From an uncultured Eubacteriales bacterium (GTDB taxonomy: Bacteria; Bacillota; Clostridia; Christensenellales; CAG-138), in contig CADAPG010000001.1 of NCBI GenBank assembly GCA_902789675.1, positions 23,859-87,858 of the forward strand: a stretch of DNA of 64,000 bases, in the 5' to 3' direction. Below are positions 7,851 to 41,771 of this stretch, one piece after another (within the stretch, counting starts at the first letter, position 1; every line of letters starts with the position of its first letter). The notes under the pieces were generated by a model. The model ran no database searches and was not told the DNA's origin. It was given only the letters and a program-made list of their open reading frames with translations. The position numbers and the translations under genes were made by a program.

Positions 7851-7856
7851 GTTTCA

Positions 7857-7880
7857 TGGCGGAGACGGTGGGATTCGAAC
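7857..7880. repeat. attL core: 24-bp direct repeat TGGCGGAGACGGTGGGATTCGAAC (orphan 3' end of tRNA-Ser)
   Basis: Identical to 41678-41701. Identity ends on both sides (7856 A vs 41677 T; 7881 T vs 41702 C). Confidence 0.85.
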
Positions 7881-8019
7881 TTGCAGAGTACGCCCGATCA
7901 AAAAGCCAGACAAACAGGCGTTTTTCTTGAAATTTTCAGTAAAACAGGGCATTTCAGGGCGTTCATAGATTCGGAAAATGAAAGAATATTTTCACATTCC
8001 GAAAGGTATTTTTCGGCTT

Positions 8020-9132
8020 TTAACTTGCATTTTTGGACACGGTTTTGGACACGGTCGGCTTCTCGTCCTCATAGAACGCCTTCATGCGTTCGATATCCTC
8101 GTTTACATCCTGCGCGGCAAGATGCGTATAGATATCGTGCACGACTGCGGGCGTCGACCATCCGCCGACCTGCATAGTTGTTTTCTCTGTCCATTTCAGA
8201 TGGTAGGCAAGGGACGCAAACGAATGCCGCAGGCAATGCAAGGTGACGTCCGGCAGGCCGACTGCTGCGCAGATCCTTTTCAGATGCCGGTTGATCGTCT
8301 TTTCGCTGACATCGACGGGCAGGCGATCCAGAAGGTCACGCAGCCGCGGGATCATAACCGGAACGTCGCGGTGCGACAGATCTGTTTTATTCTGCTCCTT
8401 GCTGACAAGCCCGTTCTCTCCACGCACGACGGCGCCGCGCACGCGGATCATGGACCCGTCGCATTGTGTCAGCGCAAGGATCTCGGACATACGCAGCGAG
8501 TGCAGCGCGAGGAGGTACACAATTTCGCATTCGTCGCCTCGGATGGCGGGGAGCAGCTTCTGTATCTGCTCGTAATCAAGAAACGCGCGCTCGGATCTGG
8601 AGGACTTCGGAAGATTTACAACGGGCGGCGTCATCTTTGCGTATTGCATCGCGCCGGTGACGAGACGCCATGCGTTGATGACCGTCTTCGGTCGTACGCA
8701 TTCCGTTTCTTTGCTGATCATCACTTGCCACGGGATCTTGCTGACGGACTGATCCAGATACGCCTTGAAGCGCGTTTTGCGCATGGATTTATAGGACCGA
8801 ACCGTCGCAGGGGACAAAACGGCTTCGTTCTCATTGATAAACCGATCGATTATCTGTCCGAGCGTGTCCTTCGGGGCTTTGTTTGCCTGCTCGATCATGC
8901 CGGCTTTAATGGCACGGGCGCGGATATAGTAAGCCGCTTCGGTGTCTTCGGTGATCCATACGCGGTTGCCGTCGACCATGACACGCCCGCGATATTTCCC
9001 GGACTTCGTCAATGCGGGCGGCGCAACAGATACTTCGTCTTTCGGCTTCCGCTGGCGCCGTATGCGCTCCCCGCAGAAACGGCAAAAGACGGAGTCGTTT
9101 TCGATCTCTTTTTTACAATGCTTGCAAATCAT
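8020..9132 (-). CDS. int: Tyrosine-type phage integrase with N-terminal zinc-ribbon
   Basis: Catalytic pattern SLRMSEI (Arg), HCLRHSFA (HxxR), HDIYTHL (Tyr). N-terminus CKHC...CRFC. Adjacent to attL. Confidence 0.9.
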   Translation of the reverse strand: MICKHCKKEIENDSVFCRFCGERIRRQRKPKDEVSVAPPALTKSGKYRGRVMVDGNRVWITEDTEAAYYIRARAIKAGMIEQANKAPKDTLGQIIDRFINENEAVLSPATVRSYKSMRKTRFKAYLDQSVSKIPWQVMISKETECVRPKTVINAWRLVTGAMQYAKMTPPVVNLPKSSRSERAFLDYEQIQKLLPAIRGDECEIVYLLALHSLRMSEILALTQCDGSMIRVRGAVVRGENGLVSKEQNKTDLSHRDVPVMIPRLRDLLDRLPVDVSEKTINRHLKRICAAVGLPDVTLHCLRHSFASLAYHLKWTEKTTMQVGGWSTPAVVHDIYTHLAAQDVNEDIERMKAFYEDEKPTVSKTVSKNAS

Positions 9133-9141
9133 AGCAGGATC

Positions 9142-9780
9142 CTATTTAGAGAAGAAACTCGTAGCCAAAGTTAAGAGTGCTATTATAAAGAAGATCATCA
9201 CAGCTGTGCTGCGAGTGACACGCTTTGATTTCATTTCTAGTTCTTCTTTGATAATGGCTTGTACACTGGTTTCTGCTCCGGAGTAGTGACGATATTCGTC
9301 TTCGCATGCCATAATAAAATCTTTTATAGATTGGAATGTTTTACTTTTATATGTCTTTGTTATACGCAAACATACAATCCAAATGACAATGCAAGGAACG
9401 ATTGGAATGAGAATACGCCATGCTATTCCTATGATGTCCCATACACCTTTTTCTGATCCGATAAACTCTTTTATCGTGTAAAAAACGATATTGCCAAGCG
9501 CAATTAGAACCGTGAAAATATAGAAAAACCACGTAAAATCATCCGCATCATATATCTGCGCTATGAACAGATAGTCGTTCCACATCTGCCTTATACATAT
9601 CGGCTTGTCAGCATCCCACTCATTTCGAGGCAACATTCTGTAAATGATATCAATTATTCTGCCTTTGCTGCTTTCTATATATTCTACTTTTCTACGCTGT
9701 AGGTGGCATATCTCATAGTACATGCAAAATGAAATTGTCGATAATATCAGGACGAGAGTAGCGAAAGCATAAGGTATCAT
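9142..9780 (-). CDS. Hypothetical multi-pass membrane protein (212 aa), AT-rich moron between integrase and repressor
   Basis: Uninterrupted ORF in visibly AT-rich DNA with about 5 hydrophobic helices, including a C-terminal anchor (AVMIFFIIALLTLATSFF). No family recognised. Confidence 0.6.
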   Translation of the reverse strand: MIPYAFATLVLILSTISFCMYYEICHLQRRKVEYIESSKGRIIDIIYRMLPRNEWDADKPICIRQMWNDYLFIAQIYDADDFTWFFYIFTVLIALGNIVFYTIKEFIGSEKGVWDIIGIAWRILIPIVPCIVIWIVCLRITKTYKSKTFQSIKDFIMACEDEYRHYSGAETSVQAIIKEELEMKSKRVTRSTAVMIFFIIALLTLATSFFSK

Positions 9781-9879
9781 TGTATTTCAGCCCTTTCAAT
9801 TATTCGTTTTCAATAAAAGCTATACTGTTCTCCGATCTCATATCATGTCGTCTAATGATAGAAGCAGCATAAAAACACC

Positions 9880-10191
9880 TCAGATTTCCTCGTTCAATTC
9901 ATCTTGACGATCTGCTTTTGCCTTCAGTTCCTTGTATATCAGAACACACCATATGATGTAAAACGCTACCAACGCAAAGAAGATAAGCATAGTCCACCAT
10001 GGCATCGATATGACTTGAATGAAGCAATAAATAAAGATGCCTAAAGCCAAGATGAAAGGTACGATGGGAATAAACTGATTGCAGAAAGCGAATACCAAAC
10101 AAGCGATTATCTGCACCCAAAACGGAAATGGAGTAAATCCAACGATGATGACCGCCATAATGAGCGATAATATCCACATTTTATGTTTCAT
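9880..10191 (-). CDS. Hypothetical small membrane protein (103 aa), AT-rich moron
   Basis: Strong RBS (reverse complement GGAGGAGAAAGAC before the ATG). 3-4 TM helices and an acidic C-terminal tail (DRQDELNEEI). Lies immediately downstream of the repressor on the same strand. Confidence 0.6.
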   Translation of the reverse strand: MKHKMWILSLIMAVIIVGFTPFPFWVQIIACLVFAFCNQFIPIVPFILALGIFIYCFIQVISMPWWTMLIFFALVAFYIIWCVLIYKELKAKADRQDELNEEI

Positions 10192-10222
10192 GTCTTTCTC
10201 CTCCTATAAAATCGAATATCAA

Positions 10223-10555
10223 TCACAGGGCATTCTTGTCTTCTTTTTTGTCTTTGTTTTCTGCAATAAGGAACTGAATATTGCGAATAATATTTGCTTT
10301 TTCAGGATCAGATAGTTTTCTGTATAGAGAAAGCAAATACATCTCACTATCGTCAAAAGGTGAAAACTGACTATTAACAAGATAATCCACAGAAACATGG
10401 AGATGGGCGGCAATCTCACAGATTTTTGAAACAGAAGCAGAAGAATCTGAAAGCTTGCTGATGTATCCTTTGCCAAATCCGCAATCCTTTTCAAGTTGAT
10501 TTATTGATATGCCGCGTTCTTTACAAATGGACTTAATACGCTCTTTTACTGTCAT
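10223..10555 (-). CDS. CI-like XRE-family phage repressor
   Basis: HTH pattern ISINQLEKDCGFGKGYISKL. Divergent from a Cro-like gene across a 211-bp operator region. Confidence 0.85.
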   Translation of the reverse strand: MTVKERIKSICKERGISINQLEKDCGFGKGYISKLSDSSASVSKICEIAAHLHVSVDYLVNSQFSPFDDSEMYLLSLYRKLSDPEKANIIRNIQFLIAENKDKKEDKNAL

Positions 10556-10576
10556 ATAATTTCCACCTCATATAGA

Positions 10577-10748
10577 TTCTGAAAAAATCGCAAAAACTAT
10601 ATTGACAAACTGAATATATCGCGTATAATATAAGTGTGTTCTGAAAATATCGCGCTTTCAATTGACATAAAAATATAGTTTTGTCCGACAAGCAAATTAT
10701 AGTGCTAAATATGCAGCATGTCAATAAAAAAGCGTGATATTTTCAGAA
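10577..10748. promoter_or_regulatory. Phage genetic-switch region: four operator copies (consensus TTCTGAAAATATCGCG) plus two consensus sigma-70-type promoters facing each other
   Basis: O1 10577-10592, O2 10608-10623, O3 10639-10654 (direct, 31-bp spacing), O4 10733-10748 (inverted). Plus strand: TTGACA 10602-10607, 16 nt, TATAAT 10624-10629. Minus strand: TTGACA (reverse complement of 10719-10724), 17 nt, TATAAT (reverse complement of 10696-10701). Confidence 0.6.
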
Positions 10749-10766
10749 CGAACCGCAGGAGGAGAT

Positions 10767-10988
10767 ATGCAGATTTACGAAAAGATTAAATTAATTGCAA
10801 AAAACAAAAAGATCACGATTGATGCAATTGAAAAGGAAGCGAATCTTGGACGAGGTAGCTTATCGAAATGGAATACGGTCAGTCCCTCAGTTGGAAATCT
10901 TTTGAAAGTGGCAAAAATACTTGGCTGTAGTCTTGATGATTTGATCCAAGACGAAGAAGCAGATAATCAAAGCATAATACCAGCTTAA
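10767..10988 (+). CDS. Cro-like XRE-family HTH protein
   Basis: AGGAGGAG RBS then ATG 10767; the ORF-track start 10734 is upstream of the RBS. HTH pattern ITIDAIEKEANLGRGSLSKW. Confidence 0.8.
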   Translation: MQIYEKIKLIAKNKKITIDAIEKEANLGRGSLSKWNTVSPSVGNLLKVAKILGCSLDDLIQDEEADNQSIIPA

Positions 10989-11042
10989 TACACTGCCGGT
11001 GATCATCAATCTTTTATGTTTTATACAGAAAGGAGCAGGGAA

Positions 11043-11309
11043 ATGCCAAAGACCAGAGGAAAGTCCAGGAACAAGAGCTCGGCGGGGAGAATCGCCTACC
11101 TGGAATCGCGCAAGCCGTTCATCCCGGAGTACGGGAAGATCTACGAGCACATAAACGGCGGGCGGTACGAGTGCATTGATGCGTCGCCGAGCGAGAAGCG
11201 CGCCCGCTTCCGGAACGTCAAAACGATGCTGACGAAGACGGCGTTAGGCATCGGAATATACGAGGACGGGCGGATCGACTGGGAACACACGGTATACAAC
11301 ACGTTTTAA
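11043..11309 (+). CDS. Hypothetical early phage protein (88 aa, basic N-terminus)
   Basis: AAAGGAGCAGGGAA then ATG 11043. Coding-like ORF in the early operon. Confidence 0.55.
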   Translation: MPKTRGKSRNKSSAGRIAYLESRKPFIPEYGKIYEHINGGRYECIDASPSEKRARFRNVKTMLTKTALGIGIYEDGRIDWEHTVYNTF

Positions 11310-11326
11310 GGAATGAGGGCGGCTAT

Positions 11327-11605
11327 ATGGAATATGTCAACATTGCAGACGTCGTATGGCGTACAGACGCCATTACGCGCCAATACGTTCAGGAAAACTA
11401 TGCTATGCTCATGTACCCCGGCAGGATGTCAGCGCGCGAGCTTGCAACAGCAGCAACGTACTGCGCCGGTATTGATAACCCTTATACGAAAGAGCTTTGC
11501 CGGGCGGCCGGACTGCTTGAATCGTTAGAACGTGCCGCATCGGACGAAGAACGTGCTGCGGTGCTCCGGGAAACGGCCAGAAGATTCAGAATGACAATAA
11601 TCTGA
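11327..11605 (+). CDS. Hypothetical early phage protein (92 aa)
   Basis: ORF with an upstream GAGGG and the same orientation as the neighbouring early genes. Confidence 0.55.
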   Translation: MEYVNIADVVWRTDAITRQYVQENYAMLMYPGRMSARELATAATYCAGIDNPYTKELCRAAGLLESLERAASDEERAAVLRETARRFRMTII

Positions 11606-11775
11606 ACACGAACCCAACAGGCGCGGATCCGGCTACTGTCCGGGATGTGAGATAAGAGTGCCGCGCCGTGGTGATAAGGGGCGCAACTCGCCGCGCCCCG
11701 CTAATGCAGCCGAAGGCGGTCACAAGCCCGCGTGAAAAATGCAGAGTGGCGAATGCAATAAGGGAGACAACGTGC

Positions 11776-12069
11776 ATGTTTGACGAAAAGACGATGAATA
11801 CCGCACGGGAATACGAATCGACCATTATGAGCGATATTTTAACCGCAGAAGAAGCGTTAAAGAGGAGCTTATGGGTCGACGCAAAGGTTGTTGTGTGGAT
11901 GTCGTATGAACTGTATTGCGACATGCTCTTTAAGTGTCGAGCGATCGGCGGGGAAGTCGGCGGTGAACGCACATTCCACGAGTATCGGGTCATGATCTAT
12001 TCGGGCGGATGCAAGGAAAAGAGTTACGAGGTTCATATCTATACTGAGAAAAAGGTCTTTGAAATCTAA
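11776..12069 (+). CDS. Hypothetical early phage protein (97 aa)
   Basis: GGGAGACAACGTGC then ATG 11776. The ORF-track start 11668 has no RBS and a non-protein-like N-terminus. Confidence 0.5.
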   Translation: MFDEKTMNTAREYESTIMSDILTAEEALKRSLWVDAKVVVWMSYELYCDMLFKCRAIGGEVGGERTFHEYRVMIYSGGCKEKSYEVHIYTEKKVFEI

Positions 12070-12832: not shown

Positions 12833-12996
12833 GTTGCGCAGACAAGGCGCTTGCGGTAATTGAGCTTATAGGAGCGGGAATCATTTCAATTCTGATAATG
12901 GTGGCGCTCGGATCGATCATCATGATACCCGGGAGGCTGTCAGACATTGCGGACGAATTAAGAAAAGCGAATAAGGGGAAGGAGAAAAAGCAGTGA
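12829..12996 (+). CDS. Small membrane protein (55 aa)
   Basis: ATGA overlap with the upstream stop. One TM helix (VIELIGAGIISILIMVALGSIIMI) and a basic tail. Confidence 0.45.
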   Translation: MSCADKALAVIELIGAGIISILIMVALGSIIMIPGRLSDIADELRKANKGKEKKQ

Positions 12997-14717
12997 GAGA
13001 CCGCGGGGAAGACGTACAATCCCAGGAGATCTTCGTAGACAACTTCGCGGGCGGCGGTGGGGCAAGCACAGGGATTGAGCTTGCTATCGGAAGAAGCGTT
13101 GATATAGCGATTAACCACGATCCTGCAGCGATCGCTATGCACAAGGTCAATCATCCGAACACAAAGCACTATACCGAGGACGTCTGGGCGGTGGATCCGG
13201 TGGACGCCTGTGCCGGGCGGAGCGTGGCGCTTGCGTGGTTTTCGCCTGATTGCAAGCATTTCAGCCGTGCGAAAGGCGGCAAGCCGGTAGATAAGAATAT
13301 CCGAGGTCTTGCATGGGTTGCGATCCGATGGGCGTACCTCGTTAGACCGCGCGTGATTATGATGGAGAATGTTCCGGAAATCGTTACATGGGGGCCGCTT
13401 GATAAGCACAACAAACCGATCCCGGAACGCGCCGGAGAGACGTTCAACGCCTTTGTAGGAGCGCTGACGGTTGGAATATGGGACAAACACCCTGCAATCA
13501 AGGAAATGTGTGATGCGCTGCAAATAGACCGAGAATCGTCTATAGCAAAGGATATTATCGCAAAAGGTCTCGGTTATCAGGTGGAGTTTCACAAAATGCG
13601 CTCTTGCGATTACGGAGCACCGACGTCACGGGAACGGTTTTATATGATTGCGCGCTGTGACGGTGCGCCGATCCGGTGGCCGGAGCCTACGCATGCGCCG
13701 AAGGGCTCGTTTGAGGTTCTTTCCGGAGAAAAGCAGCCGTACCGCACGGCGGCGGAGTGCATCGACTGGTCTATTCCGTGTCAGAGCATTTTCGAGCGTG
13801 AAAAGCCGCTTGCGGAAAACACTCTGCGCCGGATTGCCCGCGGTATCAAAAAATTTGTGATCGACAATCCGAACCCGTTTATTGTGACGGTCAACCACAA
13901 AGGCGACGGCTTCCGAGGTCAAGACATCGCGGAACCGCTCGGAACTGTTACAGCAAAGAACGGATACGGCGTCGTGGTTCCGACGATCATGTGCAACAAT
14001 GCAAACAACGTCGGAAAGCCCGCAGATTCGCCGCTGCCGACCGTAACGACCGGAAATAGGAATTTCCTTGTAGCGCCCTCGTTGATTCAGTACCATTCTG
14101 AACAACAGGAAAACGAGGTCCGAGGGCAAGAACTGACAGAGCCGATCCAGACGCTTGACACGCAAAACAGATATGCGTTATCAGTCGCGGCAATCATGAA
14201 GAACTACGCGGGCGGCTACTCCGGTGCTGGCAGCTCGGTCGAAGATCCTTTGCATACGGTTACAGCGACCGACCACAACGCCCTTTTGACGGCGCATATC
14301 TTAACGTTACGCAACAACATGGACGGACAGGAGCTTGACGAGCCGCTGTCAACGGTCACGGCGGGCGGCTTGCACCACGCAGAGGTCGAAGCGTTCTTGA
14401 TAAAGTATTTTTCAACCGGATCACCGAAGCTGGTGGACGAACCGCTTGACACCATCACAACAAAAGACCGCTTTGCGGTCGTGACGATCCACGGCGAAGA
14501 ATACGTTATCACGGACATTCGTATGCGAATGCTGCAACCGAAGGAACTGTTCAAGGCGCAGGGGTTTCCGGATAATTACATCATCGACCACGACGCAGAC
14601 GGCAATCCGTACCCGAAGAAGGAACAAGTGGCGAAATGCGGCAATGCCGTCACGCCGCCGACCGCGGCGGCGCTCGTTCGGGCGAATCTGCCGGAGTATT
14701 GCAGGGAGGCAGTATGA
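12993..14717 (+). CDS. DNA (cytosine-5)-methyltransferase with greatly expanded, internally repeated target-recognition region
   Basis: AAGGAG RBS then GTG 12993. Motif I FAGGGGAS, IV SPDCKHFS, VI MENVPE, VIII TSRERF, IX QPKELFKAQGFP, X CGNAVTPP. About 285 aa lie between motifs VIII and IX and contain six (E/D/S)P(L/I)xT(V/L/I)(T/D) repeats. Confidence 0.9.
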   Translation: MRDRGEDVQSQEIFVDNFAGGGGASTGIELAIGRSVDIAINHDPAAIAMHKVNHPNTKHYTEDVWAVDPVDACAGRSVALAWFSPDCKHFSRAKGGKPVDKNIRGLAWVAIRWAYLVRPRVIMMENVPEIVTWGPLDKHNKPIPERAGETFNAFVGALTVGIWDKHPAIKEMCDALQIDRESSIAKDIIAKGLGYQVEFHKMRSCDYGAPTSRERFYMIARCDGAPIRWPEPTHAPKGSFEVLSGEKQPYRTAAECIDWSIPCQSIFEREKPLAENTLRRIARGIKKFVIDNPNPFIVTVNHKGDGFRGQDIAEPLGTVTAKNGYGVVVPTIMCNNANNVGKPADSPLPTVTTGNRNFLVAPSLIQYHSEQQENEVRGQELTEPIQTLDTQNRYALSVAAIMKNYAGGYSGAGSSVEDPLHTVTATDHNALLTAHILTLRNNMDGQELDEPLSTVTAGGLHHAEVEAFLIKYFSTGSPKLVDEPLDTITTKDRFAVVTIHGEEYVITDIRMRMLQPKELFKAQGFPDNYIIDHDADGNPYPKKEQVAKCGNAVTPPTAAALVRANLPEYCREAV

Positions 14718-27664: not shown

Positions 27665-30600
27665 ATGGCAACGATTGATGACATCCTTAAAAAGTATCAG
27701 AAGGCTCTGACGAAGAAACAGATCGAAGACCTGATTCAGAAGAGCGAGCAGTACAAGTTGCTCAACGCCGGTAACAGAGCGAACGCGCAGACGCAGCTTG
27801 CGAAGCAGTACCGTCAGACGCGTCGCGGGCTTCAGAACGTAGGCTTGGCAGGGCGCGAAGGGAAACTTATCAGCGGACGCGAAATCAGCGTAAAAGACGC
27901 GTACAGAAACGCATACGGCACGTACAATCAACAGCTTCAGCAGGGCGAGAACGCGATGATCGAACAGGCAGCAGCGAAGAAAGCGGCTGCCAATGCAAGA
28001 GCGCGTCAGCAGCAAGCGGAACAGCAGCAGAAGGCGATCGAATACGAACAGGAGCGGCTCAATCAGGAGCAGATTACAGATCCGCGTCTTGAGCGTGAAA
28101 AGCCTACGCGAGAAGATAAGGAATATTCAGCTCTTGTGAATTACAATCCGTTCAATCACAGCGCGGATGAGAACGTGAACTATTATTTGAAGATCGCAGA
28201 GCAGAACGGCATGAAGGGCGTTGAGGCGAACCGCTATGCTGTGTCGATGGCAGCAGAAGTGGCAAACAGAAAAGGTGCCGCTGCCGAAGCGATCCAGCCG
28301 CATGGTCTGAAACCGAATCAGGAGCAGATTCAGAAGAATCTCCCTTCCCTTCGTTTCGCACAAGACTATGGAGTTAATCTGATGAAGCTGAAGCAGGAAG
28401 ATCCTGCGATGGCACAGACCATCGAAGACGATGTCAAATACTGGTATGACTTCATCGATGAAAAGTCTGAGTTTTGGAGCAACGCGATCCGCAATAAGAC
28501 AAAGGATTATCATTCTGCGCTACAGATGCAAGCGAATGCGTATGCGGCACTTGCGAAACTGTCGCTTGCGGCGAAGGCTCCTGCCGAGCAGCGGCAATAC
28601 TATCTGATGTCCGACGCTGAATTCGACACGGCGTATGATGCTGCGGAGAGAGCGTATACGCGCGCCGAGCAGGAATATCAGATTGCAAAGAAGGACAGCT
28701 CCAGCACGATGGATGATGTCATTTCGGAACCGAAAGCTGCGCTTGAAAAGGCAATGCAAATGAAGAATCTGATGGATCAGATCAAGGCGAACAGGGCAAG
28801 CAATTCGACGGTAAATCTGCTTGCGTATCAGATGCAGATTCCCGAATCCGCAAAGACAAAGGACAAAGAGTACGCATCGACAAGAGAATATGTGGACGAG
28901 AATCAAGCCGCCGGGAAGATCACATTAAAAACAAAGGATTGGACGCTTAAAATCAATCCTTGGACAGAGAACCCGTCGCAAAACTGGGCTGCTGTTCGTG
29001 ACATCGGATGGTCTGCTGACGATTTCGCAAGGACACACGATGTCAAAGGCTCAAGGTATTCTGCGTTAATTAACGAGTGGTCACTTATTTGTGGGAGAAT
29101 CGCTTCGCTGTTTGGAGCAAATCAGTATTTTGCTACGGATAAAGATTTCGTTGGCGCGTCCTTGGATTACATTCAGGCATTGTTCGGCGCGAACCGAGCC
29201 GATACGGATGTCAATTACAAGTGGTTCCGTGACCAATGTCTGATGGCGTTTCGCGGAAACTACGACGATACCGGCTCCGATGCGCAGAAGGAACAGATGG
29301 ATGCCATGCTGACGCTTGCGAACCTCATGACGGACGAGGAGCGCGCGCGTTTCAACGCATTGCTTGATACGATGGGAGCAAGGGCAGCTGACGAGTATTT
29401 TGACCTTCTGTACAAAACCGTGCTTCCCGAAAGATTCACGTCGTATGTGTCGGATTACAATGCTGAATACATGGAAGATCTGCCCGGTATTGCAAAACCT
29501 GCGTTGAGCGTCACGAGTGTACTTCCGTCGCTTACGCAGGGCATTCCCGGTATTGCTCACGCGTACAGCACGAATCAGCAAGATCCTGCCGCGGCGCGTG
29601 TTTCTGCGATGCGATACAACCAAGCACAGAACATTCGGAATGCGCGTATGCAGAAATTCGGCAAATTCGGTCAGTTTGCATACGGCACGACGATGAGTAT
29701 GTGGGACTCATACTTTGTCGCAGCTATTACAGGCGGTTTGGGAAAAGCGTTTGCGGCAGCCGGTGTACCTACGGCAGTAAATATCGGCGGCAAGACCGTA
29801 AACATTGCAGAAAAGGCGGCGAGTGTTATTGGAGGTTCCCTACTTGGTGCGTCCGCGTATAACTCCACGTATCAGGAAGGTCTTGAGAGAGGCTTGACCC
29901 CCGAAAAGGCGCGGATGACGGCATTGGGTTCCGGCATCAACGAGATGCTGTTTGAATCGCTGTCGTTGGATATGCTCGTTGGTCATTTCCAAAAGGGCGG
30001 TATGCTCAAGGCATCGAAGAAGGCATTTGTGAACTGGATCGTCAACACCTTGGTGCAGGGTGGCGTTGAAGGTTCCGAAGAGGTCTTCACCGATATCGGC
30101 AATAATCTGTGGGACAAAATGGTCAACGGAATCTATTCCGAAGAGCTGACGAAGATCCGCGAGTATGTATCGCAGGGCATGACGCTTGAGGAAGCAAAGC
30201 GAAAAGTCAGCGGTGAATTCGCAGCGCAGTTGGGCATGAGCTTTGGCGGCGGCTTTGCATCCGGCGGCGTGATGGGCGGCGGTTCTACGTTCATGGGCAT
30301 GGTGCAGAATCGCGGAAACGAGAAGGTCGGCAAGTCGCTTGACAGCGGTCTGCGGTCGAAGATCGACGGCTTCCAATTCAAGGACAAACAGATGCAAGAG
30401 CTTCAAAAGCAGAGCAAAAAGACGAACCAAGACTACGGCGTTTTGCTTCAGGGATATCTTGCTGAAAAGTACGGACAGTTTGAAGGCAACGTGCAGCAAG
30501 CGGTCAAGGACGGCACGATCACGAATGAGGACGCGGCTCTGCTGGATAAGTGGCAGAAGGGCGAGGTCACCGCAGACGAGATGCAGACCGTCAACGAAAC

Positions 30601-33600
30601 GCTTGCGAAGCTGGACATCAAGCCGCTGCTGGAGATTGCACAAGCGCAGGAATCCATTCGGTTTAACCAGCAAGTAGGCGTGAAGAATGCCGAGAACCTG
30701 CGTGCGTGGGAGACGAAGCATAACGAAGCGCAGAAACAGCATGACGAGGAAGTCGCAAAGATCGAAGCGGACGATTCTTTGACCGATGCGCAGAAGGAGC
30801 AGAAGAAAGCCGAAGCGTATCAGAAGATGACCGAGGCGCAGAGCAGAGCCGGGGACGAACTGTCAGCAAAGGTCGGCAGGAAGATCGACATCAAGGTTGA
30901 GAAAGACGGCACGACGGTCAGGACGAAGAAGGGGTCCGGCAAGGTTACCTTTGATTTCAGTACCTACAATAACGGTAAGGCCGAGAATCACAACACGGTC
31001 GAAACGATGACCGAGCGCGAACGGGCAGCACTGCGGATCGCGCAGGTGGTCGCTGCGCTGAACGGTACGAACATCAAGGTCGAAGCGCAGTTTACGTCGC
31101 GAACGCTGAAGGACGGAACGGTCGAGGATCTCAAAGACAAGAACGGCTATTATGATGAGGACACGGACACGATCCACGTCAACCTGAACGGTACGAACAG
31201 CGTACTATGGACGATTTCGCACGAACTGACGCACCGTCTTGCGACGATGAACAAGAAGGGCTACGCAGAGCTGCATGACGCGATTAAGACCGAGCTGACG
31301 AAGGAGAACCTGACGTATTCCGAGGTGCAAACGCTGGAGCATTCGTATCAAATCGACAAGCTGCAGACGTATCTGAATAAGGGTATGAACCTTTGGGATG
31401 CGCTCGTTGCGTATGAAACGGACAGAGGGTATAAGGGCGCCGCGGCAGAGGAAGAAGTGATCGCCCGGTGCTGCGAACAATTCCTTGCAAAGACGACGTT
31501 CATAAACAGCTTTGCGAATAAGCACTTCCGCACCGCAAGGTCTGTTTCCGCATTCCTGACGCGCATGAACGCGGACATGCAGCAGCTTTTCTCGGACGTC
31601 AATATGCGCAGCACGCGGGCGGCGACCACGCGGAACGAGCTGGGATATTTTGAAACGTGGAATACCGACGTATCCCCGGAACAGGACATTCTGAATCAGG
31701 TCGACACGCTGGACGATATAGCCCGGAAGTGGGAGAACGCGGTCAAGATGGTCGATCAGAAGCGCAAGGCGAAGGAAAGCGCGAAAGCGGAGAGCGTGAA
31801 AGCGTCGACTATGGATAAGTCCTGGGTTTCCAGCTACCCGTCAACAAGGATCGATTATAAGGAAAAGTCGAGTTATTCACCGTACATGCAGCATGTCATT
31901 ACGGAATACATGGGCGCTGTTGATGATCGGCTTGTGCAGTTTGCAAAAAAAGTTGTAAATGGACAGTATGTAAAACCTGTTGAGTTAAAGAATGTATCAA
32001 ACGAACTTGGTGCAGATATTGAGAAACTTTTGGGATGGAATCCTGCTGGATATAAAACAATCATTGAATCAAGGATAGGAGAACACATAAGGAAAAGACA
32101 CGGTCTTGGCGGCTATGTTAGTGGTAGACAATCTGATATGTCTATGGCTGATTATAATGATTTTGCACGCATGCAGTTTATCATTGATAATTACGACACT
32201 ATTCAAGTTGGAAAAGCGACAACTGCATACAGAGAAATGCAACCGGGTTCTGATAACGTTCAGTTAAAAGCTGAAACGATTGTACTCGGTAAGCGCATTA
32301 ACAGTATGTACTATGTTGCAGAAGCTATTCCGAATACGTCTGATAAGACGGTAGCGATTATGTCTGCGTATATACGCGACGTTGATGTCACGAAAAAAGG
32401 AGCTGTGCCGGTCCGCGATACAAAATACGTCCCGCGGTCCACGTCCAAGACCGAAGCGGCTCTAACTCCTAAGCCTATTATACACGATAGGGAAGCAGAA
32501 TACAATAGCAAATTACGGAAAAACAGCACGCAGGACAAGGACTTCCACCTGACGCAGCGCGCCGGAGAGCAGCGCGTGTTTGAGATGCGCGGCACGACAG
32601 CGAACGTGTACGGCAGCAGCGTCGAACTGGAGGGCGGCACGCTTCTGAACCGTGTGCGAATGATGCAGAACCTTGCCGAGATGTACGGCTCCGTCACCGT
32701 GACCGCGACGAGCGAAAAGGAAGCGCAGGCGTTTGAGAAAGCCGGCGCGCAGCGCGAGGCCGACACGTTCGGAAATACCAAATACGGCACGTGGGCGTTT
32801 GAACACCAGGAGGACCAGTACCGGAAGGATACGGAGTACGACGCGAAGCAGAAGCGGAACTTTGCGAACGCGGTCATGAAAGAGGTCGGAACGTACCGGA
32901 ACTTCTCTAAGGACGATATGCGAATCATCCGCGCAAAGCTGGAAAAGGCGTTTGCTGTGCTGCACAACGCATGGCACGGCGACGGCGATCAGCTCGTCGC
33001 GTGGGAGTACGCGGACAGACTATTTGATCAGATCCTGAATCGCTACACCGAAATGACCGAAGCGGACGCCGAGATGCGCGAAGCGATCCTTGCCGAGATG
33101 CCGCGTAAGACCGATGCGAAGGGCCGCGTGTATCGTGAGATCGAGGTTACCGCTGCGCAGATGGCTGAGATCCGGACCGCGTATGAAAGCGTAGCAGAGT
33201 ATAACCGTGCGCTTTCCAAAGCGCTGGGTACGCGTGTGGTCGTCAAGGAAACGGAAAACGCGCAGACGCTGGAGGACGTCTTCGCAAGCAATCCATACCT
33301 TGACGCACAGACGAACGAGGGCGACATGCCGATGGTGCTGCTGGACCGCGCACAGGAAACGGTCGGCAAGCGCACAAACCCGTATAAGGCAGAGAGCGCA
33401 GAGCGGGCGGCACTGAAGGAAGCCATGTTTGAAAAGGCGTTGGGCATTGTCGGGATCGAGAAATCCACGACGCAGAAAGTCCGTGAAGCGGTCAGGGAGG
33501 CACGGGCGGAAGAACGCGCAAAGGCCAAGGAAGAAGCGGAAAAGAAAAAGCTGGCAGAACAGATGGAACGTGGAAGATTCCGCGCAAAGGTTCGTCGAGA

Positions 33601-36600
33601 AGAACACGCATGGTACGAAAATGTGCTGAACAAGATGAAAGAGGTCAAGTATTCCGAAGACGAGCAGGTGAAGAAAGACTTTTTGAAAATCGCAAAAACG
33701 AACTATCAGCGTCTTGTAAATATGCTTGCAAATCCTACAGAAGCAAGTCATATTCCTGTTCAGCTTGCGCGTCAGGTGTCGGAATTCTGCCTTGCGTTGA
33801 ACGATCTTATGGATGCCGATATGAGCAAGAAAGCGGATTCGCTTGCTGATGCAAAAATGAGCAAGCGTGGCGTAATCAACATGGACAAGCTGATCGACGC
33901 ATATAAACAGACCTTTGCTGACAAGGACACGATAGAACAGGCAACGCGAGAGAATCCCGGCTACGACCCGAGAGGTTCGTTCCTCGATATGTCGATGTAT
34001 GACGAAACGCTTGTACAGATGATGGAAGGGCTGAACGAACTGCTTAAAGGCAAGACCGTCAAGCAGATGGATAATTACGAACTGCGTGCATTGATGTACA
34101 CGGTGCGCGGCGTTCTTAATGCCGTTTATGACGCAAACAAGGCAACGGTCAAGGGAGAGAAGCGGTTTGTCTATAAAATCGCGGAAAAGATGGTTTCCGA
34201 ATTGCAGAAAGCAAACGTGTTCGGAAAGAAACAGAACGCGATTACTCGATTCTTGAATCAGTATACTATTGAATCTCTCGGCCTTCGCAGAATCGCAAAA
34301 ATCTATTCTAATTCCGACGAGAATTCTGAATTCGTGAAGCTGGTCGATGATCTGAACGAAGGCGCAATAGAGGTTGAGCGCATTGCTCTTGCGCTGCGAA
34401 AGATGTTTGATCCTGTCACGACGCGGTACGCGAAGGACATGAAAACGTGGTACGGCAAGAACGCGGAATGGATCGACATTGGCAACGGTGTGAAGATCAC
34501 AAAGGGTATGCGCGTATCGTTGGCAATGCACTTGCTGAACGAGCAGAATCTTCGTAATCTTACGGAACGCGGCGTAACGATTCCAAATCAAGCAGACTAC
34601 AAACGCGGCGATTATGAACAGGCATACACGAACGGAACGATCGTCAGGATGACAAAGGAACAAGCAAAAAAGATCGTGTCCGAGATGACAGAAGCGGAGA
34701 AGGCGTACTTTGAAGTAGCAAAGGAATTCTTCCATAAACGCGCAGGGTATTACATCAATCGGACGAGCTTAAAGATGCTTGGCTACGCAAAGGCAATTGT
34801 CGAGAATTACTTCCCGATTCAGGTTGACGATGCGTACAAGATGATTCAGTATGACGCAAAAACCTTTGGGAAGAATGCAGCAGTTGAACATCCGGGATTC
34901 CTTGAATCCCGTAAAGGGACGTCGAACGTTATGTACTTAAACGACATCACTGCGGTCGTAAATCGGCAGATTAACGGTGTTGCAAAGTATGCAGGTTTGG
35001 CAATTCCGATGCGAAATTGGAACGCGGTCATGAATCAATGGATGTGGCATGAAGACGCAAACAAGAATTGGGTTGCGGATAAGGGCAATGTCCATACAGA
35101 ACTGAAGAAGCAGATGGGTGTTGCGCAATTTGGAAAGTCCGAGCAGGGCAGACGCGCAATGGTATCGTTTGTAGATCAGTTTATAGAAGACCTTGCGGGT
35201 GCCTCTATCAACAATGCGAATGAGTATGTATCTGCTGCTACGTTAGGACAAAAGCTGACATCGAACTATGTCAAGGCGGTCCTTACTCTGAATGCGAGAG
35301 TTGCATTGTCACAGCTTGCATCCGTGCCTACGGCGGCAGCGGAGATTCCGTGGAAGTACATCGTGCAATCGTTCGGCGGCAATGTCGAGCAACACCTGAA
35401 CCGCAATGCAAGCAACGAGCTGATCGATATGTACACGCCGTTGTTCGCAATGCGTAGAGCTGGCACGCAGACCGAGGTATCCGAGGTCATGAAGCGCAAA
35501 GGTCTGTCCGAAAAAGCCGAGCAGAAACTTCCGTGGGCGTTGGGATGGATCACCGCAATGGATACTGCAGCAACGAGAAGGTTATGGTACGCTTGCGAAC
35601 GGTGGGTGAAGGGCGAAACCAATATCCCGGTCGGATCGGACGAATTCTACAAGGAAGTTGCGAAGCGGTATGAGCGAGTGATTCAGAACACGCAGCCGAA
35701 CTTTACGGTGCTTCAGCGTTCACCTGCGCTTCGGAGCAAGAACGCAGCGGCGCGGATCATCACGATGTTCGGTACGCAGAGAATGCAGAACGCAGGCGTG
35801 TTTATCGAATCCGCTGCCGAAGTCATTCAAGCAAAGGACAAGGCAACTCGCAAGGCAGCTCTGAAGAAATTCGGCAGAACGCTTTCGGGTCTTGTCACGG
35901 CGGCAATCGTCATCGGTCTTGAACGCGCAATCGTGTCCGCGATCCGTGGGCGCATGAAACCGCTTCAGGACAAGGATAAGGATGTCACAAGGGATAGTGT
36001 TGACAAGTATATCCGCGGAGAGATCGGAAAATCTCTTGCAGGTTCGTTCATGTATGTCGGTGAAATCTACGATTTCGTAAACGGAATTGTAAGCGGCTTC
36101 ACAGACAACGATACCTACGATCAGAGCTTTGCGCTCCCGGCATCTGAAGCGATTTCGGAGATAATTAAATTCTGTAAGGACGCTATTCCGTTCATGCTCA
36201 ATATCAACGCAGTAGACGAGAACGGCAAACCGAAGTACGATGATCACCAAAAGTGGCTGAAGACAAAGACCTTCATCAATGGTCTTATGACTGTTGCCTC
36301 GTATTCGACAGGACTACCGTTTGCAAATGCATCGAAGACGCTTCTGAATGGCATTCATCCGGGCTGGCATGACATCGTTGACGCTTTCAAGACGGGCGAA
36401 CTGATTCCGTGGCTGCATCAATCCGGCAGACTGGACAGCGCAAGCACGGCGGCGAACTACAAGGAATGGACGAACCTTGGCAAGAAGGGCAGCACGTACT
36501 TCTACTGGGAAAAGAAGTACAAAGAGATCAAAGGCGACAAGAATCAGCCGAACGTGGACACGCTTGCATCGAAACTGATGGCAGACCGGGATCTCACACC

Positions 36601-40369: not shown

Positions 40370-41129
40370 AGTATATGTAGGCGAAGCGATCAAGGACGAA
40401 GACAACAAAGCCCGCGGCGGCGAGCCCGGCGATCAGACTGGGCGCGAGGTGTGCGTTCGCGAATGGAAGATGAACCCGCAGGGTTGGCGAGTTCTGCGCC
40501 CGAAGGACCCGGCGGTCGCTGAGAAGATCGCCTATGACATGCGAGCAGCATGCGCGAACCCGTTCATCGGGTACGATCAAACGGACCGCAGGACGTTGTA
40601 CGAAGTGTCCAAGCCGCTCGACTTCGATTGCGCGCGCGTCAAGACGCCATGCGAGTGCGACTGCTCCTCACTCGTTCAGGTGTGCGTACTGTACGCGGGT
40701 GTCAAGGTCGGCAGCTTCAATACAGCGAGCGAAGCGGCTGCGCTGCTCAAGACCGGCGCGTTCATCGAGCTCACCGGGGAGAAGTACACCGAGTCACCGG
40801 ACTTCCTCCGCACCGGAGACCTCCTCGTGACGAAGGTCAAGGGGCATAGCTGCGTGGTCCTGAACGACGGACCGAAGGCAGAACCGCTGCCGGATCCGGA
40901 GCCCGAACCTGAGCCCGAGCCATCGAACGCATACGTGCTTGTCAAGGGCGGGTCGGTCCGTGTCCGCGATAAGGACGGCGTGTATGGTCGCTGCATCGGC
41001 ATCGCCCACAGAGGCGAAGAGTACCCATACATCGAGACCGCCCCTTCCGGCTGGTACCGGATCGCGTGGCGCGGCACGCAGGCGTACATCACGAACAAAC
41101 CGCGCTATACGGAGGTACAGAATGGCTGA
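40359..41129 (+). CDS. Endolysin: NlpC/P60-like cysteine peptidase domain, (PE)n linker, C-terminal SH3b-like domain
   Basis: GGGAGGG RBS then ATG 40359. Candidate nucleophile in CECDCSSLV and His in KVKGHSCVVL. PDPEPEPEPEP linker. SH3-like YVLVKGGSVRVRD...GWYRIAW. Confidence 0.7.
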   Translation: MSTKVYVGEAIKDEDNKARGGEPGDQTGREVCVREWKMNPQGWRVLRPKDPAVAEKIAYDMRAACANPFIGYDQTDRRTLYEVSKPLDFDCARVKTPCECDCSSLVQVCVLYAGVKVGSFNTASEAAALLKTGAFIELTGEKYTESPDFLRTGDLLVTKVKGHSCVVLNDGPKAEPLPDPEPEPEPEPSNAYVLVKGGSVRVRDKDGVYGRCIGIAHRGEEYPYIETAPSGWYRIAWRGTQAYITNKPRYTEVQNG

Positions 41130-41331
41130 ACAAACAATCACGGAGATCCTGCAGGCATTGGCACGCATTGAGACAGACGTCAAGACGATTGCAAAGAATA
41201 GCGCGGATCACGAGGCAAGGCTTCGGGAGCTTGAACAGAAAAGCGGTAAGAGGATGGAAGCGATCCTGTCGGCAGCGATCGGCGCGGTCGTCGTCGGCGT
41301 GATCGGTTATGTGATCGGGAAACTATTTTAA
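41122..41331 (+). CDS. xhlA: XhlA-like lysis-associated membrane protein (69 aa)
   Basis: N-terminal coiled coil (LARIETDVKTI...HEARLRELEQK) plus a C-terminal TM helix (AAIGAVVVGVIGYVIG), located in the lysis cassette. Confidence 0.55.
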   Translation: MAEQTITEILQALARIETDVKTIAKNSADHEARLRELEQKSGKRMEAILSAAIGAVVVGVIGYVIGKLF

Positions 41332-41350
41332 AGAATAAGGAGGTGAATGT

Positions 41351-41575
41351 ATGGAAACGCTCGAAACTCAAAGCAGAAACAAGAGTGTTCTCTTTTGGAT
41401 CGGATTGGTGTCCGCTGTGTATGAGGCAGTGCTGAACAGTCTGACAGCAAGCTTGTCGGCTGCAAACCTCGGTTTTCCGCCCGTTGTTGGCGCCGTACTC
41501 GGTGCGATAGGCGTGGCGCTTGCGACGGTGCTGATCTATTGCAATGGGAACAACCCGTCGCTTAAAAGATACTAA
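41351..41575 (+). CDS. Holin (74 aa, two TM helices)
   Basis: GGAGGTGAATGT then ATG 41351. Two hydrophobic helices and a charged C-terminus. Last phage gene before attR. Confidence 0.65.
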   Translation: METLETQSRNKSVLFWIGLVSAVYEAVLNSLTASLSAANLGFPPVVGAVLGAIGVALATVLIYCNGNNPSLKRY

Positions 41576-41589
41576 ATCAATCAAGGGTA

Positions 41590-41617
41590 AATACCTCTGC
41601 TCGAACAGAGGTATTTT
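41590..41617 (+). terminator. Rho-independent terminator of the phage late operon
   Basis: AATACCTCTG-CTCGAA-CAGAGGTATT followed by TTTG. Confidence 0.7.
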
Positions 41618-41647
41618 GTTATATTTGGATATAAATTTGGACATAAT

Positions 41648-41677: not shown

Positions 41678-41701
41678 TGGCGGAGACGGTGGGATTCGAA
41701 C
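41678..41701. repeat. attR core (24 bp), forming the 3' end of the intact tRNA-Ser
   Basis: Identical to 7857-7880. Confidence 0.85.
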
Positions 41702-41771
41702 CCACGGACCGGCTCATCACCAGTCAAACGATTTCGAGTCGTTCTCGTTATGACCACTTCGATACGTCTCC
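41678..41771 (-). tRNA. tRNA-Ser (anticodon CGA), long variable arm, encoded CCA
   Basis: Manual fold of the reverse complement: acceptor GGAGACG/CGTCTCC, anticodon stem AACGA/TCGTT with loop CTCGAAA, variable-arm stem GACTGG/CCGGTC, T-arm GTGGG-TTCGAAT-CCCAC, then G-CCA. Confidence 0.9.

What the first reader, a model, noticed from the sequence alone, without database searches (positions are those of the whole stretch)
9142..10191. Two AT-rich orphan membrane proteins between integrase and repressor: candidate superinfection-exclusion / prophage defence pair
Seen: two ORFs (212 aa with ~5 TM helices; 103 aa with 3-4 TM helices and an acidic tail) lie on the repressor strand directly downstream of the CI-like gene and upstream of int, so they are probably expressed in the lysogen. 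Their DNA is visibly AT-richer than the integrase and the rest of the phage. Established: the int-repressor interval is the classic location of Sie-type membrane proteins and other prophage-encoded defence morons. I recognise no family for either protein.
Basis: partly seen in the sequence, partly recalled or inferred. Interest (0 to 1): 0.55.

Follow-up and report, generated by a model that had tools for sequence, protein, structure and literature searches.

The report
Two separable orphan prophage membrane genes
Two small membrane-protein genes sit between a prophage's repressor and integrase and are probably made in every lysogen, but they belong to separate swappable cassettes, not one two-gene system, and their suspected job of keeping other phages out is untested.

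Summary
Minus-strand ORFs of 212 aa (A212, 9142-9780) and 103 aa (B103, 9880-10191) lie between a CI-like repressor and a tyrosine integrase. The prophage (7857-41701) is integrated in tRNA-Ser. Both genes are AT-rich (37-39% GC; integrase 56%), but so are the repressor and cro genes. Each protein has four predicted membrane helices. Both are real genes (dN/dS 0.06-0.20).

Both are true orphans, with under ten 90%-identity clusters each among 5.8 billion proteins. No Pfam, PHROG, PADLOC, NCBIfam, PDB or Foldseek match was found, and none to RexA/B, Sie2009 or SieA.

The "pair" reading fails as an obligate system. B103 travels with the immunity cassette and follows unrelated repressors in two phage lineages. 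A212 occupies a separate cargo slot next to int. At least five cargo sets fill this interval, all including membrane or secreted proteins. A 17-codon relic of an ImmA-like gene in the B-A spacer marks a recombination junction.

Two att-flanked prophage scars retain only B, or only A'+B'. This suggests a benefit to the host that needs no other phage gene.

Lysogen-expressed superinfection exclusion, each protein acting alone, is the best inference. It is unproven.

The parts
7857..7880 (.). attL: 24-bp copy of the 3' end of tRNA-Ser. This is the left prophage boundary.
   Evidence: Exact 24-bp repeat TGGCGGAGACGGTGGGATTCGAAC at 7857 and 41678. Homology to related prophages starts exactly at 7857.
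8020..9132 (-). Tyrosine integrase, 370 aa, with an N-terminal zinc ribbon. This is the conserved 'int module' (lineage I).
   Evidence: PF00589 32 bits, phrog_1 E 1e-38, zinc-ribbon hits at residues 3-25. It is 93-97% identical in L001, L003 and L012.
9142..9780 (-). A212: orphan 4-TM membrane protein with two K/R-rich helical loops (21-82 and 138-191) predicted to be cytoplasmic. It occupies the int-proximal cargo slot (9133-9852).
   Evidence: ORF; hydropathy; AlphaFold2 all-helical, pLDDT 64.5. Seven family members in all. dN/dS 0.15-0.20. L012 and L032 carry other genes in this slot.
9800..9853 (-). Relic of the last 17 codons plus stop (RRHDMRSENSIAFIENE*) of a 73-aa ImmA/IrrE-like HEXXH gene, inside the B-A spacer. 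It is a recombination scar.
   Evidence: Alignment with L001 and L003. The 73-aa protein scores 21.7 bits against Peptidase_M78. Both homology breakpoints fall at 9853.
9880..10191 (-). B103: orphan 4-helix polytopic membrane protein, predicted N-in/C-in. It has conserved TPFP(F/W)W and MPWW turns on the predicted outer face. It is part of the immunity cassette (9853-~11029).
   Evidence: ORF and strong SD; AlphaFold2 gives 4 helices, pLDDT 68.4; family alignment; dN/dS 0.06-0.14. It always lies directly downstream of a CI-type repressor in intact phages.
10223..10555 (-). CI-like HTH repressor, 110 aa.
   Evidence: HTH_3 and HTH_26; phrog_8 E 3e-14; RstR-like E 2e-8.
10576..10749 (.). Switch region. 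It holds face-to-face perfect-consensus promoters: P(-) at 10724-10696 for cI-B-A-int and P(+) at 10602-10629 for cro. It also holds three operator-like 14-mers GAT(A/T)TTTTCAGAA(C/T) at 10576, 10638 and 10736.
   Evidence: Promoter scan; pattern search gave 3 matches against 0.5 expected.
10767..10988 (+). Cro-like HTH, 73 aa from the ATG that has an AGGAGG site. The mechanical ORF starts at GTG 10734.
   Evidence: HTH_26 and HTH_3. Called as 73 aa in identical contigs.
41678..41771 (-). tRNA-Ser(cga). Its 3' 24 nt (41678-41701) form attR.
   Evidence: ARAGORN; repeat.

Best explanation
A212 and B103 are two independent accessory ('moron'-type) genes for polytopic cytoplasmic-membrane proteins. 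They are probably co-transcribed with the repressor in the lysogen.

They belong to different recombination modules:
- B103 is the promoter-distal gene of the immunity cassette (cro / operators / cI / B).
- A212 is one of several alternative cargoes in a slot directly upstream of int.

Neither family has conserved catalytic-type residues, so they most likely act by binding, not by catalysis.

My committed mechanism is that each protein, on its own, sits in the lysogen's membrane and blocks a membrane step of infection by other phages. That step would be genome entry or conduit formation, i.e. superinfection exclusion in the manner of P22 SieA, T4 Imm or Tuc2009 Sie2009.
- B103 would present its two conserved Pro/Trp turns on the outer face.
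- A212 would add a second, different specificity.

Shown: the gene anatomy, the modularity, purifying selection, orphan status and retention in prophage scars. Inferred: expression in the lysogen, the topology, and the exclusion function itself.
For: 1. Position and signals. Both genes are on the same strand as cI and downstream of it, behind a 12/12 consensus promoter. B has a strong SD. The cI-B gap is 31 nt, the B-A gap 99 nt and the A-int gap 9 nt. No terminator or stable fold lies between them.
2. B follows repressors that share no BLASTP similarity (110-aa type versus 130/135-aa type), in two phage lineages with different integrases and att sites. The constant feature is therefore placement in the lysogenic operon, not one repressor.
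3. Modularity. The window matches L012 over int and over B-cI-cro (95-96%) but not over 9133-9852. It matches L001 and L003 over int plus A but not over 9854-11029.
4. At least five cargo sets fill the interval. All include membrane or secreted proteins:
   - B+A
   - B+B2+YHYH
   - B + a 1-TM protein with an acidic tail + YHYH
   - ImmA-like + A
   - ImmA-like + a 131-aa 4-TM protein + HTH
5. A alleles are far more diverged than the adjacent int. For L001 versus L003, A has dS 1.07 and dN 0.19, and int has dS 0.12 and dN 0.014. This is allele swapping of the kind seen at arms-race loci.
6. L012 carries a tandem B paralogue with 37% identity.
7. Retention in scars.
   - In L007-L011 (5 contigs), 75-nt serS-3' repeats flank only B, plus the last 32 codons of cI and the first 21 codons of int.
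   - In L017-19, 25-bp tRNA-Leu repeats flank a 1.5-kb AT-rich island holding only A' and B', with its own promoter.
   - The genes are intact, with dN/dS about 0.07-0.12, so they appear useful without any other phage gene.
8. The phage has its own lysis cassette elsewhere: an ELLD endolysin plus small holin-like ORFs at 40221-41575.
9. Precedent from the literature:
   - Sie genes between int and repressor (PMC7693887; Ltp, PMC3952083).
   - SieA, a 3-4-TM inner-membrane protein that acts alone and has types under 30% identical (PMC10461980).
Against: - There is no sequence or fold similarity to any characterised Sie, Abi or defence protein. PADLOC and PHROGs give nothing, and hhalign probability is <=1% against RexB, RexA, Sie2009 and SieA.
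- The structure models are low-confidence (pLDDT 64-68), so the Foldseek negatives carry little weight.
- Position alone does not predict function. All genes between int and repressor of lactococcal phage Dub35A gave no resistance when expressed (PMC7693887).
- There are no expression data.
- The families are very rare and are absent from GTDB representative genomes, IMG/VR and INPHARED. The co-occurrence and retention arguments therefore rest on about 10 architectures.
- Scar retention could reflect recent deletion and not selection.
Confidence: 0.45

Rival explanations
1. A212 and B103 form an obligate two-component defence system. For example, A's cytoplasmic helical domain could sense infection and gate B as a membrane-depolarising channel, in a Rex-like abortive infection.
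For: Two very rare families are adjacent in two unrelated contexts and in both orders: B-A in the window and A'-B' in the tRNA-Leu scar L017. B resembles RexB in being a small 4-TM protein just downstream of cI. RexAB-like pairs co-expressed with the repressor are known (PMC6426606).
Against: A occurs without B in L001-5 and L026. B occurs without A in L006, L012-14, L020-22, L032 and in the single-gene scar L007-11. The window junction carries an ImmA-gene relic, so the adjacency is recent. A is membrane-bound and has no DUF4747/RexA similarity, and B has no RexB similarity.
Confidence: 0.1
2. One or both proteins are single-gene abortive-infection effectors. They would be membrane proteins that collapse membrane potential or permeabilise the cell once a superinfecting phage is sensed, and would not block entry.
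For: The positional and retention evidence is the same as for exclusion. Prophage membrane-anchored Abi proteins exist (PdpSau, PMC10127798). A212 has about 115 residues facing the cytoplasm that could act as a sensor.
Against: There is no similarity to any PADLOC or Abi model. B has almost no soluble part that could sense anything. Nothing in the sequence distinguishes Abi from entry block.
Confidence: 0.15
3. The genes serve a function unrelated to phage defence. This could be lysogenic conversion of host envelope physiology, such as modulating a transporter, a sensor kinase or the cell wall. It could also be a role in the phage's own lysogeny or induction control, with B replacing the ImmA-like gene downstream of the repressor.
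For: B occupies exactly the position that the ImmA-like HEXXH gene holds in sister phages. The other cargoes of the slot are not known defence proteins: YHYH metal-binding-motif proteins and proteins with an acidic Yae1_N-like tail. Genes between int and rep often give no resistance (PMC7693887).
Against: B survives alone in a scar without repressor, integrase or any other phage gene, so a role in prophage regulation is unlikely. No conserved His, Glu, Asp or Ser suggests a protease or enzyme. Allele hyper-divergence next to a conserved int fits antagonistic coevolution better than housekeeping modulation.
Confidence: 0.25

Closest known systems
P22 SieA (inner-membrane superinfection exclusion protein)
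   Same: It is a small polytopic (3-4 TM) cytoplasmic-membrane protein expressed from the prophage. It acts alone and exists as highly diverged types under 30% identical (PMC10461980). A212 and B103 share this architecture, and the A family shares the allele divergence.
   Different: No detectable homology (hhalign probability 0.6-1%). sieA lies in the immI region of a Gram-negative podovirus, not between cI and int. Function is shown for SieA and only inferred here.
Lactococcal Sie2009 and streptococcal Ltp (Sie genes of the lysogeny module)
   Same: The genomic address is the same: between integrase and repressor, transcribed with the lysogeny module in Gram-positive temperate phages (PMC7693887, PMC3952083). 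They are membrane-associated.
   Different: Sie2009 has a single N-terminal hydrophobic segment and Ltp is a lipoprotein. A212 and B103 are 4-TM proteins without a lipobox. There is no homology to Tuc2009 orf2.
Lambda RexB, and CarolAnn gp43 with its RexA-like partner
   Same: These are 4-TM proteins encoded immediately downstream of the repressor and co-transcribed with it (PMC6426606). B103 matches in position and helix number.
   Different: There is no RexB or PF15968 similarity. There is no soluble RexA/DUF4747 partner: A212 is a membrane protein with no RexA similarity. B occurs alone in most contexts.
ImmR/ImmA-type immunity modules (repressor plus HEXXH metalloprotease)
   Same: Sister prophages L001, L003 and L031 carry a 73-aa HEXXH (Peptidase_M78-like) gene in exactly the place B103 occupies. 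A 17-codon relic of it survives in the window.
   Different: B103 is an integral membrane protein with no HEXXH motif or other catalytic motif. It replaces ImmA positionally and is not a homologue.

Membership tests
Lambda RexAB-type exclusion | RexB-family 4-TM protein (Pfam PF15968) | tested here: not met
   No RexB hit for B103 or A212 in Pfam at E<=1. hhalign of the B family against lambda RexB gives probability 0.4%.
Lambda RexAB-type exclusion | Soluble RexA/DUF4747 partner encoded alongside | tested here: not met
   A212 is a 4-TM protein. hhalign against lambda RexA gives probability 0.3%. There is no DUF4747 hit.
Lambda RexAB-type exclusion | Co-transcription with the repressor in the lysogen | tested here: inconclusive
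   The genes share the repressor's strand, lie behind a consensus promoter upstream of cI, and have no terminator or stable structure between them. No transcript data are available.
Lactococcal Sie2009-type Sie | Gene located between integrase and repressor in the lysogeny module | tested here: met
   Gene order is cI-B103-A212-int on one strand.
Lactococcal Sie2009-type Sie | [quoted passage not shown] | tested here: not met
   Both proteins are membrane proteins, but polytopic ones. hhalign against Tuc2009 orf2 gives probability 0.3-0.7%. No PHROG annotated as Sie matched.
Lactococcal Sie2009-type Sie | Blocks DNA injection of heterologous phages without affecting adsorption | not testable with these tools
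   This needs expression in a host, followed by adsorption and DNA-entry assays.
P22 SieA | Sequence homology, including the conserved cytoplasmic FnRYPnEAnnFNK motif | tested here: not met
   hhalign probability is 0.6% for the A family and 1.0% for the B family. The motif is absent from alignments A4 and A5.
T4 Imm (Pfam PF14373 Imm_superinfect) | Match to the family model | tested here: not met
   No hit at E<=1 in Pfam for any family member.
Ltp-type Sie lipoproteins | Signal peptide with a lipobox cysteine | tested here: not met
   Read directly from the sequences. B103 has no Cys in its first 30 residues. A212's first Cys (C19) is preceded by S-F, which is not a lipobox (the -1 position must be G, A or S).
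ImmA/IrrE metalloprotease (Peptidase_M78) | HEXXH zinc-binding motif | tested here: not met
   The motif is absent from A212 and B103. The only related sequence in the window is a non-coding 17-codon relic of such a gene at 9853-9800.
Known anti-phage defence systems (PADLOC-DB v2) | Match to any model | tested here: not met
   The best hit is E 0.087 (CARF_2M, 10.6 bits) for A212. B103 has no hit.

The most novel reading that the evidence does not exclude
The B103 family could be a previously unrecognised minimal (~97 aa, 4-TM) stand-alone exclusion or defence determinant. Hosts would have repeatedly kept it after prophage decay, as single-gene or two-gene att-flanked scars. The repressor-integrase slot of these phages would then be a dedicated hot spot for shuffling a repertoire of membrane-surface effectors: the A family, B paralogues, proteins with acidic Yae1-like tails, and YHYH proteins. 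A and B would have distinct specificities and could act additively.
Probability: 0.25. Interest if true: 0.55.

Novelty: new member of a known kind. Interest (0 to 1): 0.35.

Why it matters
If either protein blocks phage entry, it would add new, tiny and sequence-unrelated families to the short list of characterised Sie proteins. They would come from uncultured anaerobic Firmicutes-type prophages, where almost nothing is known about prophage-mediated exclusion.

The att-flanked scars that keep only these genes offer a clean natural example of host domestication of a prophage moron.

The three-module mosaic (int | cargo slot | immunity cassette), with breakpoints precise to the base, is a useful map for finding further cargo.

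If they have no phage phenotype, this is an ordinary pair of orphan morons.

Tried and rejected
- **Family assignment.** Pfam, PHROGs, PADLOC and NCBIfam scans of both proteins and of all family members found no consistent family. Weak hits (LapA_dom, DUF819, 8xMP, TMEM62_C, Mid2) are single-member TM-composition noise.
- **Solved structures.** PDB sequence-profile searches found nothing at E<=1.
- **Fold searches.** AlphaFold2 plus Foldseek against BFVD (both models) and PDB (the A model) gave no hit below E 0.4. The models are low-confidence, so this says little. Repeated low-score ExbB hits for A were rejected as unsupported.
- **Wider collections.** Neither family was found in GTDB representative genomes, IMG/VR or INPHARED. 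JGI metagenomes, scanned for the B family only, returned just the already-known L012 contig.
- **Internal duplication of B103** (two 2-TM hairpins sharing a P-W-W turn). Support from hhalign is weak (probability 18%), so it is not claimed.
- **The L031 131-aa 4-TM protein as a third B paralogue.** Not supported (probability 0.5%).
- **The L032 147-aa protein as an A relative.** hhalign gives 96% over 32 columns but at 9% identity (TM plus acidic tail). I treat this as compositional.
- **Holin or antiholin role.** Rejected, because an endolysin and small holin-like ORFs sit together at the other end of the prophage.
- **Toxin-antitoxin reading of A+B.** Rejected, because B persists alone.
- **Mahony et al. 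2008 (PMC2570291).** The paper could not be read because it is not held.

Full report
**1. What is there**

The window holds a 33.8-kb prophage.
- A 24-bp sequence at 7857-7880 repeats at 41678-41701, the 3' end of tRNA-Ser(cga).
- Between these repeats lie a replication initiator, large terminase, portal, major head protein and other virion proteins, an endolysin-like gene and small holin-like ORFs.

The left end carries the lysogeny module, all on the minus strand:
- CI-like HTH repressor, 10555..10223, 110 aa
- B103, 10191..9880
- A212, 9780..9142
- Tyrosine integrase with an N-terminal zinc ribbon, 9132..8020

A cro-like HTH gene diverges at 10767..10988.

Two perfect-consensus sigma-70 promoters face each other in the switch region: P(-) at 10724-10696 and P(+) at 10602-10629. 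Three operator-like 14-mers lie around them.

No terminator-like site or stable RNA fold separates cI, B103 and A212. B103 has an AGGAGG ribosome-binding site.

**2. Check of the observation**

The coordinates, strand, order and lengths are correct.

GC content:

| Segment | GC |
|---|---|
| A212 | 37% |
| B103 | 39% |
| int | 56% |
| rest of phage | 52% |
| cI | 36% |
| cro | 37% |

- The AT-rich tract is therefore 9142-~10990 and is not specific to the two ORFs.
- GC3 is also depressed, so the low GC is not just hydrophobic-residue codon bias.
- A212 has four hydrophobic helices, not five. Two K/R-rich helical loops (21-82 and 138-191) are cytoplasmic by the positive-inside rule.
- B103 has four helices with basic N- and C-termini, so it is predicted N-in/C-in.
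- B103's mildly acidic tail is not conserved.
- Both are real genes: dN/dS is 0.06-0.14 for B and 0.15-0.20 for A where dS is unsaturated.

**3. Orphan status**

- The word-indexed search of 5.8 billion proteins found 4 relatives of A and 2 of B.
- A profile search for B, seeded with a paralogue found by eye in L012, raised the B family to 7 clusters of 85-114 aa.
- An exhaustive HMMER profile search of 1.84 billion representatives added only three distant A relatives: P0012, P0013 and P0014.
- Nothing was found in GTDB representative genomes, IMG/VR or INPHARED. The single JGI metagenome scan, run for the B family only, returned just the already-known L012 contig.
- No Pfam, PHROG, PADLOC, NCBIfam or PDB match is consistent across members.
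- Foldseek on low-confidence AlphaFold2 models found nothing.
- Profile comparisons with lambda RexB and RexA, Tuc2009 Sie2009 and P22 SieA are negative, with probability <=1%.
- Neither family has invariant His, Asp, Glu or Ser arrangements suggestive of catalysis.
- B's invariant residues cluster in two Pro/Trp turns, TPFP(F/W)W and MPWW, predicted on the outer face.

**4. The 'pair' test: synteny in relatives**

Two phage lineages carry these genes.

Lineage I has the same 370-aa integrase. The window's copy is integrated in tRNA-Ser.

| Loci | Gene order |
|---|---|
| window, L015, L016 | cI110-B-A-int |
| L012-14 | same cI110-B, then a 114-aa B paralogue (37% identity), a YHYH-domain protein, then int |
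| L032 | cI110, B (100% identical to the window's), a 147-aa 1-TM protein with an acidic G/Y-rich Yae1_N-like tail, YHYH, int |
| L001-L005 | a different repressor (130 aa), a 73-aa HEXXH ImmA/IrrE-like protein, an A homologue, int |
| L031 | cI128, ImmA-like, an unrelated 131-aa 4-TM protein, a second HTH, a split int |

Lineage II has a 327/345-aa integrase. The serS-3' repeats around its decayed copy (section 6) point to attachment at serS.

| Loci | Gene order |
|---|---|
| L006, L020, L021/22 | cI130/135-B-int |
| L026 | an A homologue directly upstream of int |

A tblastn sweep of every locus confirmed that there are no hidden copies.

A and B are therefore each found without the other in most architectures.

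**5. Mosaic map**

- Against L012, the window is homologous over 7852-9132 (95%) and 9853-12000 (96%).
- Against L001 and L003, it is homologous over 7857-9853 and again from ~11030.
- This defines three modules:
  - int
  - a cargo slot, 9133-9852
  - an immunity cassette, 9853-~11029
- The 99-nt B-A spacer contains the last 17 codons and stop of the ImmA-like gene at 9853-9800, reading RRHDMRSENSIAFIENE*. The present B-A adjacency therefore arose by recombination inside that gene.
- A alleles are far older than their neighbourhood. For L001 versus L003, int has dS 0.12 and dN 0.014, and A has dS 1.07 and dN 0.19.

**6. Retention in prophage scars**

In L017-L019:
- tRNA-Leu(taa) and a 25-bp direct repeat of its 3' end bracket a 1.5-kb island.
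- The island is 30-37% GC in a host background of 55-58% GC.
- It contains only A' (P0012) followed by B' (P0011).
- It has a TTGAAT-17-TATAAT promoter and a 22-nt repeat near each end.

In L007-L011 (five contigs):
- Two 75-nt copies of the serS 3' end lie 551 bp apart.
- They bracket only an intact B gene, flanked by the last 32 codons of a lineage-II repressor and the first 21 codons of its integrase.

These are decayed prophages in which deletions spared exactly these genes. That argues for a benefit to the host that needs no other phage function.

It also supplies the only real support for an A-B link: two rare families adjacent twice, in opposite orders.

**7. Interpretation**

The best-supported reading is that A212 and B103 are separate, lysogen-expressed membrane morons. 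They sit in a slot that shuffles membrane and surface proteins.

By position, architecture, allele divergence, paralogue expansion and scar retention, superinfection exclusion by each protein alone is the most likely function. The model is an entry block of the SieA, Imm or Sie2009 type (PMC10461980, PMC7693887, PMC3952083, PMC6426606).

This remains inference.
- There is no homology to any known exclusion or defence protein.
- Genes in this interval can be phenotypically silent (Dub35A, PMC7693887).

The rivals are single-gene abortive infection, a Rex-like A+B pair, and non-defence conversion or regulatory roles. They are scored in the report sections.

**8. Verdict**

This is a correct observation of two genuinely orphan, genuinely coding membrane genes in the classic Sie position.

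The two-gene-system idea is largely refuted by synteny. The defence idea is plausible and now sharply testable with B alone, A alone, and the scar alleles.

I rate it as a new member of a known kind, of moderate interest.

Noticed in passing
window 10576-10749: The lysogeny switch has two perfect-consensus sigma-70 promoters arranged face to face (convergent). Predicted transcripts overlap by about 54 nt. The cro promoter lies inside the cI 5' leader, and three operator-like 14-mers GAT(A/T)TTTTCAGAA(C/T) surround them. The layout recalls the coliphage 186/P2 switch (from memory) and differs from back-to-back lambda-type promoters.
   Followed up: partly
window 27665-37750 (+): A single 3361-aa ORF takes up about 30% of the 33.8-kb prophage. 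It matches only PHROGs of unknown function (phrog_22978, profile length 3513) and has a sub-threshold PBECR3 nuclease-like hit at residues 1443-1571. No tail-tube or tape-measure family was recognised among the ORFs scanned.
   Followed up: partly
L007-L011 (e.g. L008 608-1233): A minimal prophage scar: two 75-nt copies of the serS 3' end, 551 bp apart, enclose only a B-family gene plus stubs of cI (32 codons) and int (21 codons). It is seen in five contigs. A YHYH-domain gene lies immediately upstream of the left serS fragment.
   Followed up: yes
L017 5896-7499: A 1.5-kb AT-rich island at tRNA-Leu(taa) is flanked by 25-bp direct repeats. It holds only an A-family and a B-family gene. A 22-nt repeat TTTGTGAGACTNTTGTGAGACC lies near each end and may be leftover integrase arm sites.
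   Followed up: partly
L012 8322-9168; L032 671-1604: Alternative cargo in the same slot includes a tandem B paralogue (114 aa, 37% identity), a YHYH-domain protein (NF033223) with N- and C-terminal hydrophobic segments, and a 147-aa single-TM protein with an acidic G/Y-rich Yae1_N-like repeat tail. The same kind of tail follows TM4 in A-family members P0003, P0012 and P0013, but is missing from the window's A212.
   Followed up: partly
window 8020-9132 (-): The tyrosine integrase carries an N-terminal CxxC...CxxC zinc-ribbon (residues 3-25), which is an unusual N-terminal domain for a phage integrase. In L031 the homologous gene is split into 58-aa and 292-aa ORFs, which looks like a decaying copy.
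   Followed up: no
window 12993-14717 (+): A 574-aa C5 cytosine DNA methyltransferase (PF00145 in the homologous loci) sits in the early region and is conserved across all lineage-I relatives. It may be an anti-restriction function.
   Followed up: no
window 41126-41575 (+): Two small ORFs with C-terminal or double hydrophobic segments lie directly after the ELLD endolysin-like gene (40221-41129). They are probably the phage's holins. The mechanical 154-aa ORF on the opposite strand (41180-41644) is probably not a gene.
   Followed up: partly
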